The notes beneath the pieces are model-generated. The model was given only the letters and a program-made list of their open reading frames with translations. It did no database searches and was not told where the DNA came from. Made by a program: the position numbers and the translations under genes. From the NCBI GenBank assembly GCA_045837725.1, contig JBEWZL010000077.1:310001-374000 (forward strand): a stretch of 64,000 nucleotides of DNA, read 5' to 3'. Positions 464 to 44,600 of this stretch are shown here, piece by piece; the first letter of the stretch is position 1, and each line of letters opens with the position of its first letter. Source of the stretch: Vermamoeba vermiformis. Its lineage: Eukaryota.

Positions 464-820
464 TCTGAGTTGTTGTGTTGTTTAGGTTGCGAGATGTTAA
501 AATGAAACTCAACCAAAGTTCGGCTTTTGTGCTGACGCAAGACAGTTTCTACGAATTTCAAGTAACGCCTCGCGTAGTAGAATTGCAATTCTAGCGAACA
601 TATCCTCATTAGTGGCAATTTTGTACCAGTATCATATCAGGCTGTCAACCTACGGCTCGGGTAATTTTCAAATAAACAAATTTCAAACCAAAATAATGTT
701 CCCTATTTTTCTTTGCTGATCGTGCACTAAAGCACAAAATAAGAATCAGTGTTATTTATTAGCAGTGTTAAATTGAATAGTGTTGTTTTGCTCAAGCAAC
801 AGGAGTGACAACGCTAAAAT

Positions 821-3800
821 ATGGATGATCAAGGGCAACGTCTAGATAAAATTGTAGCTCAAAATGGTAACACTCCTATATTAGTTTACAATTAAATTTG
901 ATACAATGTAGTGTTCTTGTGGAGTACACTAGCATAATTGGGCAAATTGAAAAATATTTATTTTATTTTTAATTGAATATCGCATTTATTAAATTAAAAT
1001 ATTACAGAGGAGCTAAAGTTAACAGAGAAAACTCAAAAAGCGATTGCCGAAATTCTTCCGAGCAAAGATCCGCTCGATCAGCCAGACTTCAATTACATAG
1101 ATTATGTGAACACTATTTTTCCAAATGGTACGTCGATTAATAATATCCTGTATTTTATGACGATATTAATTTACATGATAATAGAGAAGTCAGTCGAAAA
1201 TATTGAAAATGAGTTGACGAAACTGCGCCTCAAAGTGAAAAGGTACGAACAGAGGAGCAATAATAATACATATATTATTACAAATGAATATAAATATAAC
1301 ACGTGCACTGCAGAATTGACGAAGATATCCTCTCGTCCGTGTACAAACAAACACGAGCAGGCACGAAGGGCAAGCAAGAGCTCGACAAGGCCAATGTCGC
1401 CGTGCAAGAACTGTTCACTAAAGTCGGTGAGATTAAGCGCAAGGCCTCGGAGAGTGAACAGATGGTCCAAGAGATTTGTCGTGACATTCGCGATCTCGAC
1501 TTTGCCAAGCGCAATTTATCGACAGCTATTGATGCCTTGAGAAAACTGCACGAAGCAGGTCAGTTGCACCACTAAGCAGAGTGCATATGAATGAGACTAA
1601 TCATTGTTATTACGTACAGTGACCTGCTTGGAACAGATTAAGACGATGACGGAGAGGAAACAATACGTTGAAGTGGCCAAGCGGTACTCAGTGAGTGTTA
1701 TGATAATATTGCCTAATAGACGCGTAACTAACTGCATGCAAGACGGTGCAAGAGATCTTGTTGTTCTTCTCGGCATACAAAGACATCCCTAAGATCAAAG
1801 AAATTCAAAAACAAGTTGACGCTGTCACCAGTCAACTGCGCGAGCTGATGTTCTCTGAGTTCAACAAGTACGTTACTGGTAATAATACTGCACCATTGCC
1901 CTATCTAACTTGCGTCACAGCCCTAACTTAAAGCACTTGACACCAAGCGAACAACAACTGATTCTCGACGCGTCATCTGTCGTGTCAGCTCTCGGTCCTG
2001 AAACAAAGAAAGAAGTGCTCAGCAAATTTGCTCAAAAACAAATGGACAATTACTTGCGTGAATTCAAAGAGGGCACTGAGGTACTTCTAAAGCAGACAGA
2101 TTTTTTATTACGGATGCACTGACAAAAGGTTACTTTAGCAAGGAAAACTCGAAAATCTTGAAAAGAGATACACGTGGTTGATGCAACTGTTAAAGCAATT
2201 CTCCGAGCACTACTCCAAAATATTCCCTGCAGCTTGGAAAGTCGACGAATATTTGTGCGAGGAGTTCTGTTTCACAACACGTGACAAAATGTCGGAGATG
2301 TTAGAAAAGAACAAATTCGCCTTGAGCAACAACAAAGAAATGATTCCCGTGTTCACCAAGGCCATCAAAAACACACAGAAATTCGAGCGCGAGTTGATGA
2401 ACATGTTTTCACACACCGTTGAACTGAAGCAGTTTGAAGAGGATGGTCAAAACTTGCAAGACAAGTACGAGAAGTGGAAGCAGAGTCAAGAGAAGGGCGA
2501 GGCAGTGGGCGAGGCACCACAGGCCAAACAGACCACTGAGGCCCTCAAGTTCAAAGGCATTATCTTGTGCGCCTTCACACCTTACTTGTATATTTGGGTG
2601 CAACACCAGGACAGTTTGTTGCAGAGCATGTTCGATCAAGTGCTGGCGGATGAGAAGTGGACTGTCGACGAAGACGAGCGCATCAAAGTGCTCGTGTCGA
2701 GTTCAGACATCTTCTACAACCTCAATCAACTCTACACCAAGTCCTTCAGCAAAGGTCAGTCGCACTTTGACCTCTATCGTCTCTTCAAGAAGTACTTGGA
2801 CATGTACGCGGACAGATTGCGTGACAAGATTCAAGGGTAAGCTGTGCTTAGTTACTTCAAGACTTAAAGACTAATCGACTCAGATTTAACACCGCGACCA
2901 TCAGTGCCGATGAAGAGAAGATCATCTGTTTGGTCCTCAACACTTCTGACTACTGCATCGGATTCACAAAGAAAGTTGAGCAAAACTTCAAAGAGGACAT
3001 TGAAGCAGCGTTCAAAGACAAGGTCGAGTTAGACACCACCGCTGAACGATTCCAAAAGTAAGTCGACTCCGCTACAAGTAAATTCTGGGTGCTGACTAAC
3101 ACCTGCTTGACCAGTCTTATTGGCTTGGCCTCAGCGACACTCGTGAAGGTCATTGGTGACGTCATTGAACCAGCTTTAGAGTCACTCGTCCAAACCAACT
3201 GGGGTATGTCGTGCGTGTGATTGTAATTAGCGAGTGTACTTATCATGCACTACAGAGACCCTGACCTCGGTGGGCGATCAATCAGGCTACATGGACGAAA
3301 TGCAATCGATCATTCAAGAGAAGGCACCTTGGTACCGCAAGTGGATGACCTCAGGCCAACACTTCCAGTTCTGGTGCGACTCATTCGTCGGCGTGTTCAT
3401 TCCCAAGCTGTACGAGTCTATCTTCAAGTGCAGACGAATCAGCGAGATTGGCGCAGAACAACTGCGTGTCGATGTTGCTGCAGCCACCAACTTCTTGGCC
3501 ACAATGCCTGTCTACGGCATGGCACCCACCAATCAGGCCCCAGAACGGTACGTGCTTATTGCCGTCTTCCTCCTTTAATAGCACTAACATTGCATGCGCA
3601 GATATGTCAAGCGTGTCAAGCGTGACATGGGTCGTTTGGACAAGTTGTTGAAGACAGTTATGACACCAGCGGAATTGCTCGTTGACACGTACAAAGCTAT
3701 CGTGCAAGACCACACTGAAATGGACCTCATTAAGATCATGGACATTCAAGGCATCAAGAAGTCAGAGCAAGAGACCTATTTAGATCAATATGGCAGTCCT

Positions 3801-16586: not shown

Positions 16587-18678
16587 ATGGCGTCCTCTTT
16601 CACCTCAAAATTAGCGATCGAGGATCAAGTTGCTTTGAGTAGAGGTAATTTATAGCCAAAATAATTATCAATATCGTGCTTAATTATTTAAAAATTATCA
16701 GCACTACTTCAGCGACATATAAATACTGTTGAATGTCATTCTACTTTTGGTTGCAAGTTCAGCATCCAGTTGCTGGCTCAAACTAAACCCCATGGCGTGT
16801 TCGATCTAATAGAACGAATGACTAGTAGTGTATTGATGAGAAATATGGAGGTTTGCACAGCGCTCCTAATGATCGGCGGCGGAACTTCGTCTACATCTGA
16901 CCAGTAAGCTACAAAGGTATCTACGGCACTAAGCTAATCAGTGGAATATCTAGTCAAGATCTACTTATCAATTTGGGCTGCGCAATTGAATATCAATCAG
17001 CGCAGGACAAAAGCATCAAATTCACTGCCGAGAGTGGATCTATCGTGCTTGTGCCACCTAAAACTAGCATGCTATCGAGTGTGCTACCCAACACATGCCC
17101 CACTGCACTCGGGCACATACCACAAGGGTGCAGTATACTCGTGTCTTTGTGCACGGCAGATTCAAACCTCAGTGATTCTGAGCTTTTGCGGTACAACCAA
17201 CGCTTGCAAAAAGGAATTCAGCACGCATCTAAGCACATTGTAACGGTACGTCGGGCTTATTTTAGTTAAACTTGTATTTTGACATCTTGTATAGCAGTTA
17301 TCCTCGAAGGACAAATTGACAGTCCTGCGCGGACTGTGGCCTCAATTACCCGCAGAAATTTCATATTACATCATCAAACAATTAGACGTCAAGGGACTCA
17401 TGAGATTTGCATGCACTTCTAAAGGCACGCAAACACTGGTGTACAGTGACAACCAGCTCTGGCAGGCTGCAGATGTCACTCGATCGTATTCCAAAGAGTT
17501 GAAGCTCGCTACGAGTAATAGACGATTGATTCAACGGGAGATGAGGAACAAAGGCAAAGATGGCAACGAGAATGTTATGGCATTGGTGGTGGCATTGGGG
17601 TCACATCACATTGACGCAGGCATGGCTGGTGACGACATCCCTGATATTGTAGTGCCCAGTCTTGTGTGTCAAGTCAAGTCATTCGGCGAACAGCCGCAGT
17701 TATTTGCTGGACACGAGGCCACGCTCATTCCTAGCGGCACAAAAATACTGCCGATACAGAAGAAGCAAATTATCAACACAAAATACTTGCTGCACCTTAT
17801 CGAACAAGTTTATGTCTCGCATCCTTGCGCTGATTTCGAATATCAGCCTCTGTTGCTCTCATTTAGTGCACGCAACATGGTGTCAGACTACGACGAGTTG
17901 ATGTACGAGTGCTTGCAACGCTTTAACATTCCTGTGATCGCAGCTGTCGAGTCAGAAACTCTTGCCCTATACACACACGGCCAGACTGATGGCATAGTCG
18001 TGGATGTCGGTTATGAATGCACAACAATAGTTCCAGTCGAGGAAGGTCAGTCTAATATTTCAGTCCTGTACCTCTTACTAACTGCGCGCAGGCTTCGCTA
18101 TTCGTGCCAACATGATAGTGATCCCAGTGGGAGGGCGTCACGTGACATTAGAACTTTTGAATCGCATTCGCGCACAATATCCAGCACTCAGCGACTTGAC
18201 AGAGGAAGAGGCTAATGAGATCAAGGAGAAATATTGTTATTTCAAGACCAACAGTCCATACGCAGCAGTGTACGAAGGTGACCGAGAGGTGTTGATTAGA
18301 GGTGAATACTATCACCTTGGAGAGGCCTTGTACGAGTCATGCAATGTGCTTTTCAATCCTTTCGAGTTTGGCACGGGCACTCGCGACTTTAAAGAGCAAT
18401 ATTCATACATGATAGAATCACTCGAGCACAACTATCCGAAGCCTAAGGTTCGCAATACGGTGGTACTCGTTGGTGCTACGACACTTCTGCCTGGCTACGT
18501 GCACCGATTTAAAGAGGTGGTTGAAGACCTCTACATTAAATTCCCTTCATGGAAACTAACAGCCTTTGCATACCGAGGTTTTGCCGAGTGGATCGGTGGC
18601 AGCATTTTGGGCTCCTTGACTTGCCAGCAAAATTTCTGGCTGACAAAAGAGCAGCTCAAAGCGAGACTTGATGGCTAG
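16587..18678 (+). CDS. F-box + divergent actin-related protein with unassigned N-terminal domain
   Basis: F-box LPAEISYYIIKQLDVKGLMRFACTSK...DNQLW, followed by actin-fold motifs ALVVALGSHHIDAGMAGDD, GIVVDVGYECTTIVPVEEG, EIKEKYCY, WIGGSILGSL. Start codon inferred. Confidence 0.85.
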
Positions 18679-41680: not shown

Positions 41681-44600
41681 CTATTTCTCGCGATCGGTTG
41701 AGCTTGGTGGGGGTGGGCCCTAAACAAGTCATTAATAAATAATCAGGAGATGATAAATGTATGTATAACTTACTCCTCCAGGGGGCATGGTGTACGCAGG
41801 TGGCTCAAGAACGTGCGGCACATTGATCCACTTGGCTGGATCCGGTTCAGCGGCAATCTCTTCCAAAAATTTGAGCAGATGATCTAGATCATAAAATATT
41901 AGACATAAAGCCACTATGATCATAGATAGGCCCTCCTTACCCGTCGACGGTCGAACATCGGGGATGTGGTTCCAACATCGCTGAATCATGCTCGCTAATG
42001 CCACAGGACAAGCTTTATCGATTGTTGGTCGAATACCTCGTCTTGCAGCCTGATTACAAAACAAAAAATTAGAAATTGTTATGCTGATAACAAAAGCGTA
42101 ACGGTTGGATCCAAAACAAAAAATAAATGTTAGCCTGGTAGCTTAGGAACAATTGTAATAGTTCGTTACTCAATCATTCGGCCATGATAGGCTAGACTCG
42201 CTCTATGCGCTTTTGACGATTCAGGCCGTGATGAAAGTGCACAGCGCGAAAGGTAAGGAAGCGCAAGAAATTATTCAAAAAAGAAATTGGATTCGCAGGG
42301 TTTCGATCCCCGTACCTCCCGCATGCTAAGCGGACGTGCTACCAAGTGCACCACGAACCCGTCGTTGAAACGGTCCGCAGTTTTTGCTTGGTGCCGTCAC
42401 CTCAGGCGCTGCGGAGTTGAAAAACGAACAGCGGATCTTACCTGTACAATGATTTGGAAGTCGTAGATCAACGTCTTGAACTCCGAATACGGCGGTTGAT
42501 ACGTTCCCTAAGTTCCAATACGTTAGTTGATGCTTCTTACGCGTAATAAGTCCAGATCGACGTACCTTGATGCACTTCGTGACTAACTCCCACGCTACGA
42601 TAGCAAACGCGTAGACGTCAGACTTGGGCGTGAACGATTGTCCAAAGTAGACCTCAGGAGAAATGTACGCGTAAGTGCCGCGCATTTTACACAGCGTCTC
42701 CAAGTTATTGCCAACCAATTGCCTGCTCAACGTTAGACTCTAAAACAACGGCTAGATCCGCCACAGTTGGACGTACCTTGATTCTCCAAAATCGCATAAC
42801 TTGGTCTGCCAGTCATTATCAACTAAGATATTCCTGCTCTATAAATTTCCGTTCGTTAGAAAGATTATATCAAAGTCTCAAAAAGGGTCAGATCCGTTTA
42901 CCTTTAAATCTCTATGCACAATTTGAGGCTTCCAGTTATGCAGCGAATGAAGACCTCGCACGACTTGATGCAGCACTTTAACGACAATAGGCCAAGTGAG
43001 CACTGTTTGCGGGTCTTTCATCACACTGTACAACGACCCTCGCTCGCCGTAACCGAGTACCATCACTGGCGTCGGTTTGATGCACGCACCGAAAAAGAAA
43101 ACAATATCCGGACTGCGGAATTGACTGCACAAGAAATCACATGTTAATTACACTTCCCATTCACGAAATGAATTTAGTCCCTACCTCATTATAGTAAATT
43201 CCTTGGTAAAATTGTCCAATTGTTTCTCGTTCAGATCCTTCAATACTTTGAGCGCCACAATTTGATTTCTGAATTTGCCTTTGTAGACTGAACAGCTGGT
43301 GCCTTCACCGATCTTTTCAATGAATTCAATGTCAGTGCCGTCAATTTCCCAGCTGTGCGTCAACATCGTTGGCTTCCATCGAGCAAACGAGTCCTTGAGT
43401 TCGGTAAGTTCAATGGTCGGATCCTTCTTCTCTGCGAGTTCAAAAGGAGTGTTAGTAATATGATACAGTTACATATGTGAGCGTACTTTTCTTCTTGCGT
43501 CCTTTATCTTTTGGCGATTTGCCATCAACACCATTCGCTGAAAGCATTCGTTTGGTCTTATTCCGCTTATTTGGCTTCGTGTCATTATATTTATCATACT
43601 ACAGTAGTTATTAGTAAAACGCAATTAAATCAAATCAAGATAGCGGTATTCTACGAACCGCAATACAAAATGAAAATATTTCCTTTTAAGGAAAATAATC
43701 GAAAAGGGTGTTCCGAGCTTATCGATAGTTAAATATTGCAGCGTATAGGTTAATCGACTCCTTTTGGTGTTTTGAATTTTTGGGTTTCTGGATGCAAAAA
43801 AAAAAATCCAAAAATAGCTTACCAAATCGGTACTGCTCCGCTTGTGCTTGTTCGTGCTCGGTGATTCACTTTCAGCTATCTTTTTGTCCTTGTCTTTACT
43901 CTCCTTGTCTTTGCTTTCTTTGCCGCTCTTGCTCGGTGTGTTCGTTGCATTCGTGTTCACGCCAGAGCTGCTGGGACCATTATCCAGCTCCCCGTCTTTC
44001 TTCTTAGACGACGATCGACGGCTCTTCTCCTTCTCCTTCGGCTTCAGCTTGGGACTCTCGCTAGTTTTAGTGCGCGACTTGTCCTTGTCTCGCTTCTTGT
44101 CCTTGTCACGTATCTTCTTCGGGGTCGAGACTTCTATTGACGTGGGACCGCTGTCAATCTGCGCGGGCAAGTTAGGGCTGCTCATTGAATTGCGCAAGTC
44201 ATCGCCTGTCTCCAATTGATCATTGGTGTTCGATTGCAGGGTTGGATCTGACTGCGACTTGGTGTTTCCGCTGAAGATATTTTCGCTGAGTGTCTTCGGG
44301 GGCTCAACTTCTGCAGGCTCTGGCTTTTGCGGGGCAGGAGGTTCAGTTACGGCCACGCTAGGACCATTATTTTCAACGCCATTCGGCTCTTTGTTGTTAT
44401 TTTTATCCTCCGCTGCGTCTTTGGGTTTTGGCGGTGATTTTGGTGACTTGGGCGCCTTCGGTTTCTTGTCTTTAGGCGTCTTTTCAGGTGTTGTTGGTGA
44501 CACGCCTGGTTCTCGTTCAGGCCGCGGCGATGGCTGAATTAACGCCGGTCGCGTGGTCGTGCTGAACCCTTTCGGCTCGGGTGTCGTCGGAGCTGTTATG

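What the first reader, a model, noticed from the sequence alone, without database searches (positions are those of the whole stretch)
42050..42441. One intron hosting a tRNA-Ala followed ~20 nt later by a candidate H/ACA snoRNA
Seen (minus strand, same as host): a 392-nt intron among ~55-nt neighbours. After the tRNA (42360-42288) and a T6 run comes hairpin 1 (TGCGCTT/AAGCGCA; pocket CCTTACCT + TCGTCAA; upper GCTGTG/CACGGC), hinge TAGAGCGAGTC, hairpin 2 (TAGCCT/AGGCTA; pocket ATCATGGCC + CTAAGCTACC; upper GAATGATT/AATTGTTC and GTAA/TTAC), then ACA-TTT 16 nt from the pocket top. Tentatively, pocket 1 is complementary to the conserved LSU segment AGGUAAGG and pocket 2 to SSU CUUAG-UU-GGU. Known: dicistronic tRNA-snoRNA units exist in plants (C/D type). 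Inference: the snoRNA is released from the host intron or by Pol III read-through, with RNase Z cleavage providing the 5' entry.
Basis: partly seen in the sequence, partly recalled or inferred. Interest (0 to 1): 0.7.

Follow-up and report, generated by a model that had tools for sequence, protein, structure and literature searches.

The report
tRNA-linked H/ACA snoRNA in an intron
An unusually long intron of a protein kinase gene in an amoeba-like eukaryote holds a normal alanine tRNA gene followed 22 bases later by a small RNA with the build of a pseudouridine-guide (H/ACA) snoRNA. RNA libraries contain reads that run from the tRNA into that RNA, so this is a rare and testable case of a tRNA and a guide RNA sharing a precursor.

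Summary
The minus-strand intron 42441-42050 (392 nt) is spliced in RNA reads. It lies between introns of 58 and 57 nt. It holds a sound tRNA-Ala(AGC), a T6 run, and a two-hairpin element (42265-42125) with a hinge box AUAGAG and an ACA. No Rfam family matches the element.

Three RNA libraries hold it. In a sediment metatranscriptome, a roughly 93% identical relative forms a contig of mean depth 678 that runs from the tRNA's 3' half through the spacer and over the element. Its 10 substitutions inside the element avoid the stems. One makes the H box canonical (AUAGAA) and two turn a C·C mismatch into an A-U pair.

A better candidate for pocket 2 is a conserved LSU site, GCUUAG-UG-GGCCAU, with 12 Watson-Crick pairs. 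The organism's own rRNA was not available.

My odds:
- Genuine H/ACA snoRNA: about 0.8.
- Made through a tRNA-snoRNA precursor: about 0.7.
- Precursor from Pol III read-through of the T6: 0.42.
- Precursor from the host intron: 0.38.

This is a new variant of the known tRNA-snoRNA and intronic snoRNA arrangements. Interest is moderate.

The parts
42050..42441 (-). Host intron, 392 nt, GT..AG, in a protein kinase gene
   Evidence: Joint 42048>42441 in 16 X22 reads and one X7 contig. The flanking exons match PF07714.
42288..42360 (-). tRNA-Ala(AGC) gene with G3:U70; T loop reads AUCGAAA
   Evidence: ARAGORN. Rfam RF00005, 49.6 bits. X17 holds a 76-nt contig over 42287-42360 with 0 differences, depth 117.5.
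42277..42286 (-). tRNA trailer T3-C-T6, a Pol III terminator-like run (T6 = 42282-42277)
   Evidence: Read. Unchanged in the X17 relative's contig. Other tRNA-Ala loci share it and then add a second T run (tables 7 and 8).
42266..42287 (-). 22-nt spacer between the tRNA and hairpin 1
   Evidence: Crossed by contigs of X7, X9 and X17 (table 8).
42125..42265 (-). Candidate box H/ACA snoRNA, about 141 nt if it ends 3 nt after ACA
   Evidence: Two-hairpin fold, z -2.85. X17 contig of depth 678.3 over 42131-42316. Pattern of substitutions.
42206..42265 (-). Hairpin 1. Lower stem 42265-42259 / 42212-42206. Pocket strands 42258-42251 and 42219-42213. Upper stem with a C·C mismatch at 42246/42224.
   Evidence: In the relative the mismatch becomes A-U, giving an 11-bp upper stem and -44.1 kcal/mol.
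42201..42206 (-). H box AUAGAG (ANANNA with a G in the last place)
   Evidence: The relative has A at 42201, which gives AUAGAA (table 3).
42131..42194 (-). Hairpin 2. Lower stem 42194-42189 / 42136-42131. Pocket strands 42188-42180 and 42146-42137.
   Evidence: No difference in the X17 relative over all 64 nt. The pocket pairs 6+6 bp with the LSU site GCUUAG-UG-GGCCAU.
42128..42130 (-). ACA box directly after hairpin 2, 16 nt from the top of the pocket
   Evidence: None of the three laid contigs covers it, so its conservation and the RNA's 3' end are unknown.
42113..42123 (-). T6 (42123-42118) and T4 (42116-42113) just after ACA-UUU-A: a possible Pol III stop for read-through transcripts
   Evidence: Function inferred.
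42442..42507 (-). Upstream host exon (22 codons)
   Evidence: Joints; reading frame.
41941..42049 (-). Downstream host exon (end of the kinase domain)
   Evidence: joints and loose ends. PF07714 positions 218-250.

Best explanation
The element at 42265-42125 is a genuine box H/ACA guide RNA gene lying 22 nt behind a working tRNA-Ala gene, both inside a kinase intron on the host's strand.

Shown:
- The intron is spliced.
- The tRNA is sound.
- RNA libraries hold the element.
- Reads cross from the tRNA's 3' part through the spacer into the element.

Inferred:
- RNA polymerase III starts at the tRNA's internal promoter, partly reads through the single T6, transcribes the snoRNA and stops at the T6/T4 run just after ACA.
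- tRNA 3' processing (RNase Z) cuts behind the tRNA.
- 5'-3' trimming then stops at the assembled Cbf5 particle.
- The host intron may be a second source of the same precursor.
- Pocket 2 most likely guides pseudouridylation of the U in the conserved LSU segment GCUUAG-U-G-GGCCAU. The target of pocket 1 is open.

Odds: genuine H/ACA snoRNA 0.8; shared tRNA-snoRNA precursor 0.7; Pol III read-through as the main source 0.42 (the figure given as confidence).
For: Build:
- Hairpin-hinge-hairpin-ACA, with internal loops whose tops lie 13 nt (idx 50-62) from the H box and 16 nt (idx 123-138) from ACA.

RNA:
- X17 is a metatranscriptome. One 211-nt contig of mean word depth 678.3 covers 42131-42316 with 11 other letters and 2 indels. 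The tRNA contig in the same run has depth 117.5. All other bins of the 701-nt stretch are 0.
- X7 also holds the spliced mRNA contig, so it is RNA. Its 151-nt contig covers 42142-42292.
- X9 has a 189-nt contig over 42161-42347 with 0 differences, while its exons have depth 0.

Constraint:
- Of the 10 substitutions inside the element, 8 fall in the 26 unpaired 'free' positions out of 135 (P = 6e-5; 0.015 if adjacent changes count as one event). None falls in a stem.
- One changes AUAGAG to AUAGAA.
- Two change C·C to A-U and lower the fold energy from -39.9 to -44.1 kcal/mol.

For Pol III:
- T6 and T4 follow ACA within 18 nt.
- Two other tRNA-Ala loci in X17 carry a second T run (T8; T6) within about 5 nt of the shared trailer. 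This copy lacks one until after the snoRNA (tables 7 and 8).
- The host is a kinase with modest exon depth (about 10-25).
- Precedents are plant tRNA-snoRNA genes and C. elegans UM2 loci. These include an intronic H/ACA snoRNA whose tRNA-like leader is transcribed and which terminates at T runs (passages of PMC2527325; PMC2566860).

Target:
- 12 contiguous Watson-Crick pairs in 79 of 107 LSU contigs.
- 12 or more pairs arise in 0.6% of 1000 shuffles of a 6.1-kb rRNA set.
Against: - A T6 (preceded by T3-C) starts 6 nt after the tRNA and is kept in the relative. Composite Pol III genes are recognised by having no T-track there (PMC2566860).
- The H box is imperfect in the window.
- No Rfam family matches at E up to 10.
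- In X22 (raw RNA-seq reads, 12.97 million records read, 75 laid), depth is 0 over 42140-42259. Its tRNA reads come from other loci.
- Contigs cannot show ends, strand or level. The tool marks X9 as 'probably DNA'.
- The X17 contig meets an adapter at 42131, 1 nt before ACA. No 3' end at ACA+3 has therefore been seen, and ACA conservation is untested.
- Only one relative was seen and it is close, so the conservation is shallow.
- The first metagenome scan for homologues gave 0 hits.
- My search pattern selected the 12-bp LSU variant. Among nine distinct LSU contexts in rDNA loci not chosen for this site, the best match is 5+6 bp, in 2 of the 9. 11 or more pairs arise in 1.9-4.5% of shuffles.
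- The organism's own rRNA was not available.
- Same-strand placement 75 nt before the 3' splice site fits the classic intron route equally well.
Confidence: 0.42

Rival explanations
1. Classic intron-encoded H/ACA snoRNA. The snoRNA is cut out of the spliced, debranched kinase intron by exonucleases. The tRNA is an independent Pol III gene with its own terminator that happens to share the intron. The RNAs that join the two are intron-processing intermediates, trimmed back to the structured tRNA and to the snoRNP, and RNase Z may still open the 5' side.
For: - The element lies on the host's strand in a spliced intron, 75 nt before the 3' splice site.
- The tRNA has the complete family trailer with T3-C-T6, identical to the paralogues (tables 7 and 8).
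- Composite Pol III genes lack such a T-track.
- H/ACA particles normally assemble on Pol II transcripts (established knowledge, recalled).
Against: - No depth on any other part of the intron in X7, X9 or X17.
- In X9 the joined RNA is seen although the host exons have depth 0.
- A kinase gene of modest expression is an unusual supplier for an RNA seen at depth 678.
- T runs directly after ACA are not needed on this route.
Confidence: 0.38
2. An abundant tRNA-linked small RNA that is not a pseudouridylation guide. It would be another structured Pol III or intron product, in the way Yarrowia tRNA-Trp genes carry the unexplained RUF70 RNA, and its H/ACA-like shape would be incidental.
For: - No Rfam match.
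- Imperfect H box.
- No target above chance in rRNAs not chosen by my pattern.
- An adapter abuts 42131, before ACA.
- The H/ACA-like shape arises 0.75 times per shuffled window under relaxed rules.
- There is a precedent for unexplained tRNA-linked RNAs (PMC2566860).
Against: - Both box-to-pocket distances fit the rule.
- The relative's change makes the H box canonical.
- Both pocket strands of both hairpins are unchanged apart from one edge base.
- There is a 12-bp match to a conserved LSU site.
Confidence: 0.12
3. No functional RNA. The hairpins are chance features of a long, T-rich intron, and the library signal comes from DNA or from tRNA-related sequence.
For: - The shape alone is not rare.
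- The tool marks X9 as probably DNA.
- X22 has no reads on the element.
Against: - A depth of 678 in a 112-million-letter RNA library, with zero depth on the flanks, cannot be single-copy DNA.
- X7 is RNA, because it holds a spliced contig.
- The substitutions avoid stems and pockets.
Confidence: 0.05

Closest known systems
Plant dicistronic tRNA-snoRNA genes (Arabidopsis tRNA-Gly(GCC)-snoR43, rice tRNA-eMet-snoRNA). Seen as passages in PMC2566860 and PMC2875012. The original paper, Kruszka et al. 2003, is not held; only its title was seen in reference lists.
   Same: A real tRNA gene lies directly upstream of a snoRNA on the same strand. A precursor joins the two. RNase Z is the proposed cutter.
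   Different: The plant snoRNAs are C/D type, multi-copy and not described as intronic. Composite Pol III genes have no T-track between the two parts. Here the snoRNA is H/ACA type, only one copy was seen, it sits in a Pol II intron, and a T6 lies between the two.
C. elegans UM2-snoRNA loci (passages of PMC2527325)
   Same: Box A/B tRNA-type promoter sequence lies upstream of snoRNAs and is itself part of a short-lived primary transcript. Termination is at T runs, with some read-through to later runs. The loci are often in introns of protein genes, and one figured example (CeN55) is an intronic H/ACA snoRNA.
   Different: UM2 is only a tRNA-like remnant about 70 nt upstream, not a tRNA. Here the upstream unit is an intact tRNA-Ala that is also found as RNA. 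This is the ancestral state that paper postulates.
Canonical intron-encoded box H/ACA snoRNAs of animals, plants and many protists (established knowledge, recalled)
   Same: One snoRNA in an intron on the host's strand. Two hairpins, an H box, an ACA box, and pockets 14-16 nt from the boxes.
   Different: These have no tRNA gene in the same intron and usually a highly expressed housekeeping host. No sequence family match was found here.
Yarrowia lipolytica tRNA-5S rRNA and tRNA-Trp-RUF70 composite genes (PMC2566860)
   Same: A tRNA leads a second small RNA, and the Pol III terminator sits after the second RNA.
   Different: The partner RNA is a different class. The Yarrowia units have no terminator within about 50 nt of the tRNA, and they are multi-copy and intergenic.

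Membership tests
box H/ACA snoRNA | Hairpin-hinge-hairpin-tail fold, each hairpin with a large internal loop (pocket) | tested here: met
   The MFE fold gives two hairpins, z -2.85. The relative's form keeps the same fold at -44.1 kcal/mol.
box H/ACA snoRNA | H box ANANNA in the hinge | tested here: inconclusive
   The window has AUAGAG at 42206-42201 (5 of 6). The X17 relative has A at 42201, giving AUAGAA.
box H/ACA snoRNA | ACA three nucleotides from the mature 3' end | tested here: inconclusive
   ACA at 42130-42128 follows hairpin 2 directly. No library piece covers it. The X17 contig ends in an adapter at 42131.
box H/ACA snoRNA | Top of each pocket 14-16 nt from the H or ACA box (rule recalled) | tested here: met
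   13 nt (idx 50-62) lie between the pocket top and the H box, and 16 nt (idx 123-138) before ACA.
box H/ACA snoRNA | Both pocket strands pair with rRNA or snRNA around an unpaired U-N | tested here: inconclusive
   Pocket 2 pairs 6+6 Watson-Crick bp with LSU GCUUAG-UG-GGCCAU in 79 of 107 contigs, which my pattern had selected. In rDNA not chosen for this site the best is 5+6 bp. Pocket 1 has nothing above chance. The organism's own rRNA is not available.
box H/ACA snoRNA | Stable small RNA bound by Cbf5/dyskerin, Nop10, Nhp2 and Gar1 | not testable with these tools
   Only presence in RNA libraries is shown.
box H/ACA snoRNA | Match to a curated H/ACA family | tested here: not met
   No Rfam match at E up to 10 in 41900-42600 apart from the tRNA. 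H/ACA families are short-lived in sequence, so this is weak evidence.
Pol III composite (dicistronic) tRNA-snoRNA gene | Second RNA directly 3' of a tRNA gene on the same strand | tested here: met
   22-nt spacer.
Pol III composite (dicistronic) tRNA-snoRNA gene | No T-track within about 40-50 nt after the tRNA; terminator after the second RNA (criterion in PMC2566860) | tested here: not met
   T6 lies at 42282-42277, starting 6 nt after the tRNA, and is kept in the relative. The second half of the criterion is met: T6 and T4 at 42123-42113.
Pol III composite (dicistronic) tRNA-snoRNA gene | A transcript that carries both RNAs | tested here: inconclusive
   Contigs in X7, X9 and X17 cross the tRNA 3' end, the spacer and the snoRNA. 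Contigs do not prove one full-length transcript or name its polymerase.
Pol III composite (dicistronic) tRNA-snoRNA gene | Cleavage by RNase Z behind the tRNA | not testable with these tools
   Inferred only.
intron-encoded snoRNA | Lies in a spliced intron on the host's strand | tested here: met
   Joint reads and contig. The kinase frame continues across the intron.
intron-encoded snoRNA | Release depends on host transcription and splicing | not testable with these tools
   Needs experiments.

The most novel reading that the evidence does not exclude
An intact, expressed tRNA gene serves as the Pol III promoter of a box H/ACA snoRNA in an amoeba-like eukaryote. A leaky T6 sets the ratio of tRNA to snoRNA, and the unit is nested in a Pol II intron that gives a second supply. 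This would be a living example, outside plants and for the H/ACA class, of the ancestral 'tRNA as snoRNA promoter' state that was postulated from the tRNA-like UM2 remnants of nematodes.
Probability: 0.3. Interest if true: 0.65.

Novelty: new variant of a known kind. Interest (0 to 1): 0.5.

Why it matters
Known tRNA-snoRNA units are C/D type and come from plants. Nematodes keep only tRNA-like promoter remnants in front of their Pol III snoRNAs.

A bona fide tRNA followed by an H/ACA snoRNA, with RNA evidence that the two are joined, would extend that design to another RNA class and another branch of eukaryotes. It would also give a simple system to ask three questions:
- Can H/ACA particles assemble on Pol III transcripts?
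- How does terminator leakiness partition the output between the tRNA and the snoRNA?
- Do tRNA processing enzymes supply snoRNA ends?

If the intron route is the true one, the locus is an ordinary intronic snoRNA with a tRNA as neighbour. In that case the finding is mainly an annotation of a new snoRNA with a candidate LSU target.

Tried and rejected
SSU CUUAG-UU-GGU gives 5+3 bp. AGGUAAGG was found only in L067 LSU, and the other arm does not pair.
- Pocket 1 leads, none above chance (nulls):
  - SSU 3' end UUGAUGAU(U)-U..., with an 8-9 bp arm but only 3-4 bp on the other side.
  - L067 U2708, next to a group I intron, 7+6 bp, in one locus only.
  - LSU AAUGAU-UA-GAGGUA, 102-106 nt upstream of the pocket 2 site, 5+6/7 bp with 2 G·U, in 11 of 107 loci.
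- Yeast numbering, from memory only and checked by no tool. The two LSU uridines seem to lie about 4 nt 3' of yeast 25S Psi1004 and Psi1110, so they are not those sites. The table in PMC8307265 shows only that 25S 960-1124 is rich in pseudouridines.
- Strict fold-based detector. It gave 0 hits and missed the candidate itself, so I dropped it for the relaxed one.
- Homologue scan of metagenome contigs with both pocket strands of hairpin 2: 0 hits.
- Lineage:
  - Atlas search: no usable hit.
  - F-box/actin ORF search: none.
  - Kinesin exon: the named hits include Vannella, Physarum, Polysphondylium and Acrasis among 120 listed, most of them unnamed. This is only a lead towards an amoeboid protist.
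- Second detector hit at 764-906 (+): z -1.77, no Rfam match.
- Family searches in the genome search failed twice. I used a DNA query instead.
- Papers PMC140725 and PMC2705039 are not held. Supplementary tables of the modification reviews were not opened and may list sites near the candidate target.
Full report
**What is there**

Read on the minus strand, the region is part of a protein kinase gene.
- The exon 42739-42566 matches Pfam PF07714 at profile positions 149-201 (E 7.8e-08). The exon 42049-41942 matches positions 218-250 (E 0.0039, 17 bits, below Pfam's own cut-off of 23.1).
- Between them lie a 58-nt intron (42565-42508), a 22-codon exon (42507-42442) and the 392-nt intron 42441-42050.
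- RNA shows both introns being removed. In the raw reads of run X22, 16 reads from 13 start places carry the 392-nt joint and 4 reads carry the 58-nt joint. One 1502-nt contig of run X7 carries both joints (table 5).
- The next intron downstream is 57 nt. The X7 loose end at 41941 equals the window sequence from 41883.

**The tRNA**

- ARAGORN finds one tRNA in the whole window: tRNA-Ala(AGC) at 42360-42288.
- Rfam scores it 49.6 bits against a threshold of 29.
- The alignment shows G3:U70 and an unusual T loop, AUCGAAA.
- It is the organism's ordinary tRNA-Ala. In run X17 a 76-nt contig covers it with no difference, at depth 117.5. Reads and contigs with other flanks show further copies elsewhere (tables 7 and 8).
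- The trailer is A-T3-C-T6, with T6 at 42282-42277.

**The candidate snoRNA**

- From 42265 to 42125 the strand folds into two hairpins, at -39.9 kcal/mol and z -2.85; 2 of 200 shuffles fold as well.
- Hairpin 1 has a 7-bp lower stem, pocket strands of 8 and 7 nt, and an upper stem of 4+6 bp broken by a C·C mismatch.
- The hinge starts with AUAGAG.
- Hairpin 2 has a 6-bp lower stem, pocket strands of 9 and 10 nt and an 8-bp upper stem. ACA follows it directly.
- 13 and 16 nt separate the tops of the pockets from the H box and from ACA.
- No Rfam family matches at E up to 10.
- The shape alone is not rare. A relaxed detector written after seeing the candidate finds it plus one other place (764-906, + strand). 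It finds 0-3 hits, mean 0.75, in each of 20 dinucleotide shuffles of the window. For one 392-nt intron that is an expectation of about 0.002, but the rules were fitted afterwards.
- A stricter detector that relied on the full minimum-energy fold missed the candidate itself and was dropped.

**RNA evidence**

- X17 (sediment metatranscriptome):
  - A 211-nt contig with mean word depth 678.3 covers 42131-42316: hairpin 2, hinge, hairpin 1, the spacer and the 3' half of the tRNA.
  - It has 11 other letters and 2 indels, so it comes from a relative about 93% identical.
  - Its low end runs into a sequencing adapter at 42131.
  - Everything else in the 701-nt stretch, apart from the tRNA, has depth 0.
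- X7:
  - It is certainly RNA, because it holds the spliced mRNA at depth 10.4.
  - A 151-nt contig covers 42142-42292 with one difference.
- X9 (wastewater cDNA library, marked by the tool as probably DNA):
  - A 189-nt contig covers 42161-42347 with no difference.
  - Exons and the rest of the intron have depth 0, which low-coverage DNA would not give.
- X22:
  - No read lies on 42140-42259.
  - Its reads on the tRNA run into other flanks, so they come from other loci.
  - Its exon reads differ from the window at fixed positions, so it is another strain.
  - A poly(A)-type library would be expected to miss a 141-nt snoRNA, so this absence is weak evidence against.
- Limits. Contigs show presence and continuity only, not ends, strand or level. 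The adapter at 42131 is compatible with an RNA that ends a few nt further on, because a short dead-end branch would be clipped in assembly. That is my inference. The expected end 3 nt after ACA has not been seen.

**Pattern of change in the relative**

Ten substitutions and one insertion fall inside the element (tables 3 and 4).
- Four substitutions and the insertion lie in the apical loop of hairpin 1.
- Two lie in the hinge.
- One is the first base of a pocket strand.
- One turns the last base of AUAGAG into A, giving the canonical ANANNA.
- Two, at 42246 and 42224, turn the C·C mismatch into A-U. The upper stem becomes 11 bp and the fold energy drops to -44.1 kcal/mol.
- No stem base and no other pocket base changes. 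Hairpin 2 (64 nt) is identical.
- Eight of ten substitutions in 26 free positions out of 135 gives P = 6e-5, or 0.015 if runs of adjacent changes count once.
- This is what constraint on an H/ACA fold predicts, but it rests on one close relative.
- A scan of metagenome contigs for both hairpin 2 pocket strands found no further homologue.

**Targets**

No genome is held for the window. I therefore took eukaryotic rDNA from contaminated bacterial assemblies with the ITS1 primer and defined SSU, 5.8S and LSU by Rfam. This gave two full LSUs (L058, L066) and several partial sets.

  - The SSU site gives 5+3 bp.
  - AGGUAAGG occurs in one LSU only, without pairing of the other arm.
- With mismatches allowed, the best scores are at chance level. 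For hairpin 1, 82 of 100 shuffles reach the observed best. For hairpin 2, 10 of 100 do.
- With contiguous pairing, hairpin 2 gives 5+6 Watson-Crick pairs at a conserved LSU site, UUAG-UG-GGCCAU, followed by UUUUGGUAAGCAG, in L067 and L054. 11 or more pairs arise in 1.9-4.5% of shuffles.
Of these, 79 give 6+6 pairs, 27 give 6+5 and 1 gives 6+7. None extends the first arm further.
- Twelve or more pairs arise in 0.6% of 1000 shuffles. However, my pattern selected that variant, and I cannot say which variant this organism has.
- Hairpin 1, with the lowest pair of its upper stem opened, pairs 5+6 or 5+7 bp (2 G·U) with AAUGAU-UA-GAGGUA, 102-106 nt upstream of that site, in 11 of 107 loci. This is not above chance.
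- The region belongs to the pseudouridine-rich helices 37-39 of yeast 25S (table in PMC8307265). My mapping of the two uridines to about 4 nt 3' of Psi1004 and Psi1110 is from memory and untested.

**How it is probably made**

- Reads cross the tRNA 3' end, the spacer and the snoRNA 5' end in three runs from three studies, so molecules not yet cut behind the tRNA exist.
- Both routes predict the same covered span:
  - A Pol III transcript would start just before the tRNA and stop at the T6/T4 at 42123-42113.
  - An excised intron would be trimmed back to the folded tRNA and to the snoRNP.
- For Pol III:
  - T runs follow ACA directly.
  - Two other tRNA-Ala loci in X17 add a second T run (T8; T6) within about 5 nt of the shared trailer, whereas this copy has none before the end of the snoRNA.
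  - The host is a modestly expressed kinase whose exons are invisible in X9 although the joined RNA is seen.
  - There are precedents in plants and nematodes.
- Against Pol III:
  - The T6 between the genes fails the criterion by which composite Pol III genes are recognised.
  - Same-strand placement 75 nt before the 3' splice site is typical of intronic snoRNAs.
- I put Pol III read-through at 0.42, the intron route at 0.38, a non-guide RNA at 0.12 and no function at 0.05.

**Comparison and novelty**

- The closest systems are:
  - the plant tRNA-Gly-snoR43 and rice tRNA-eMet-snoRNA genes, which are C/D type, multi-copy and without an internal terminator;
  - the C. elegans UM2 loci, in which a tRNA-like remnant about 70 nt upstream is transcribed with the snoRNA. 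Some of these are intronic and H/ACA type.
- Four literature searches for a tRNA joined to an H/ACA snoRNA found only those systems. One search listed 12 papers that hold both 'tRNA-snoRNA' and 'ACA snoRNA'. I read passages of three of them, and none describes a bona fide tRNA-H/ACA unit. Subscription papers are not covered.
- The named relatives of a kinesin exon (Vannella, Physarum, Polysphondylium and Acrasis among 120 mostly unnamed hits) point to an amoeboid protist, with low confidence.
- I rate this a new variant of a known kind, with moderate interest.

Noticed in passing
window 662-1008 (+), especially 764-906: A second unusually long intron-like stretch in the Vps53-like gene. My relaxed H/ACA-shape detector also flags its hairpin-rich core. 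The fold z is only -1.77 and there is no Rfam match. It could be another intronic small RNA or nothing.
   Followed up: partly
window 42360-42288 (-): The tRNA-Ala(AGC) has A at T-loop positions 54 and 60 (loop AUCGAAA), which I recall as a feature of eukaryotic initiator tRNA. Even so, it is the form found as RNA and at several loci.
   Followed up: no
loose ends at window 42277 and 42280 in runs X17 and X22 (table 7): Other tRNA-Ala loci share the trailer up to the T6 and then carry a second T run (T8, or T6) a few bases later. This looks like back-up terminators and hints that a single T6 is leaky in this organism.
   Followed up: partly
window 17295-18215 and 18082-18678 (+): ORFs with an F-box followed by actin-family domains, an uncommon combination. 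A search among longer proteins found no scored relative.
   Followed up: partly
loci L058, L066, L067; handle G004: Bacterial MAG and isolate assemblies of the genome collection carry full eukaryotic rDNA units. One genome (G004) gave 43 matches to an LSU 5' probe on many contigs. This is contamination worth flagging.
   Followed up: no
window 41960, 41978, 42002, 42043, 42478, 42490 (table 3): All X22 reads differ from the window at these exon positions. The RNA-seq filed under the same species label therefore comes from a diverged strain or a sibling species.
   Followed up: no
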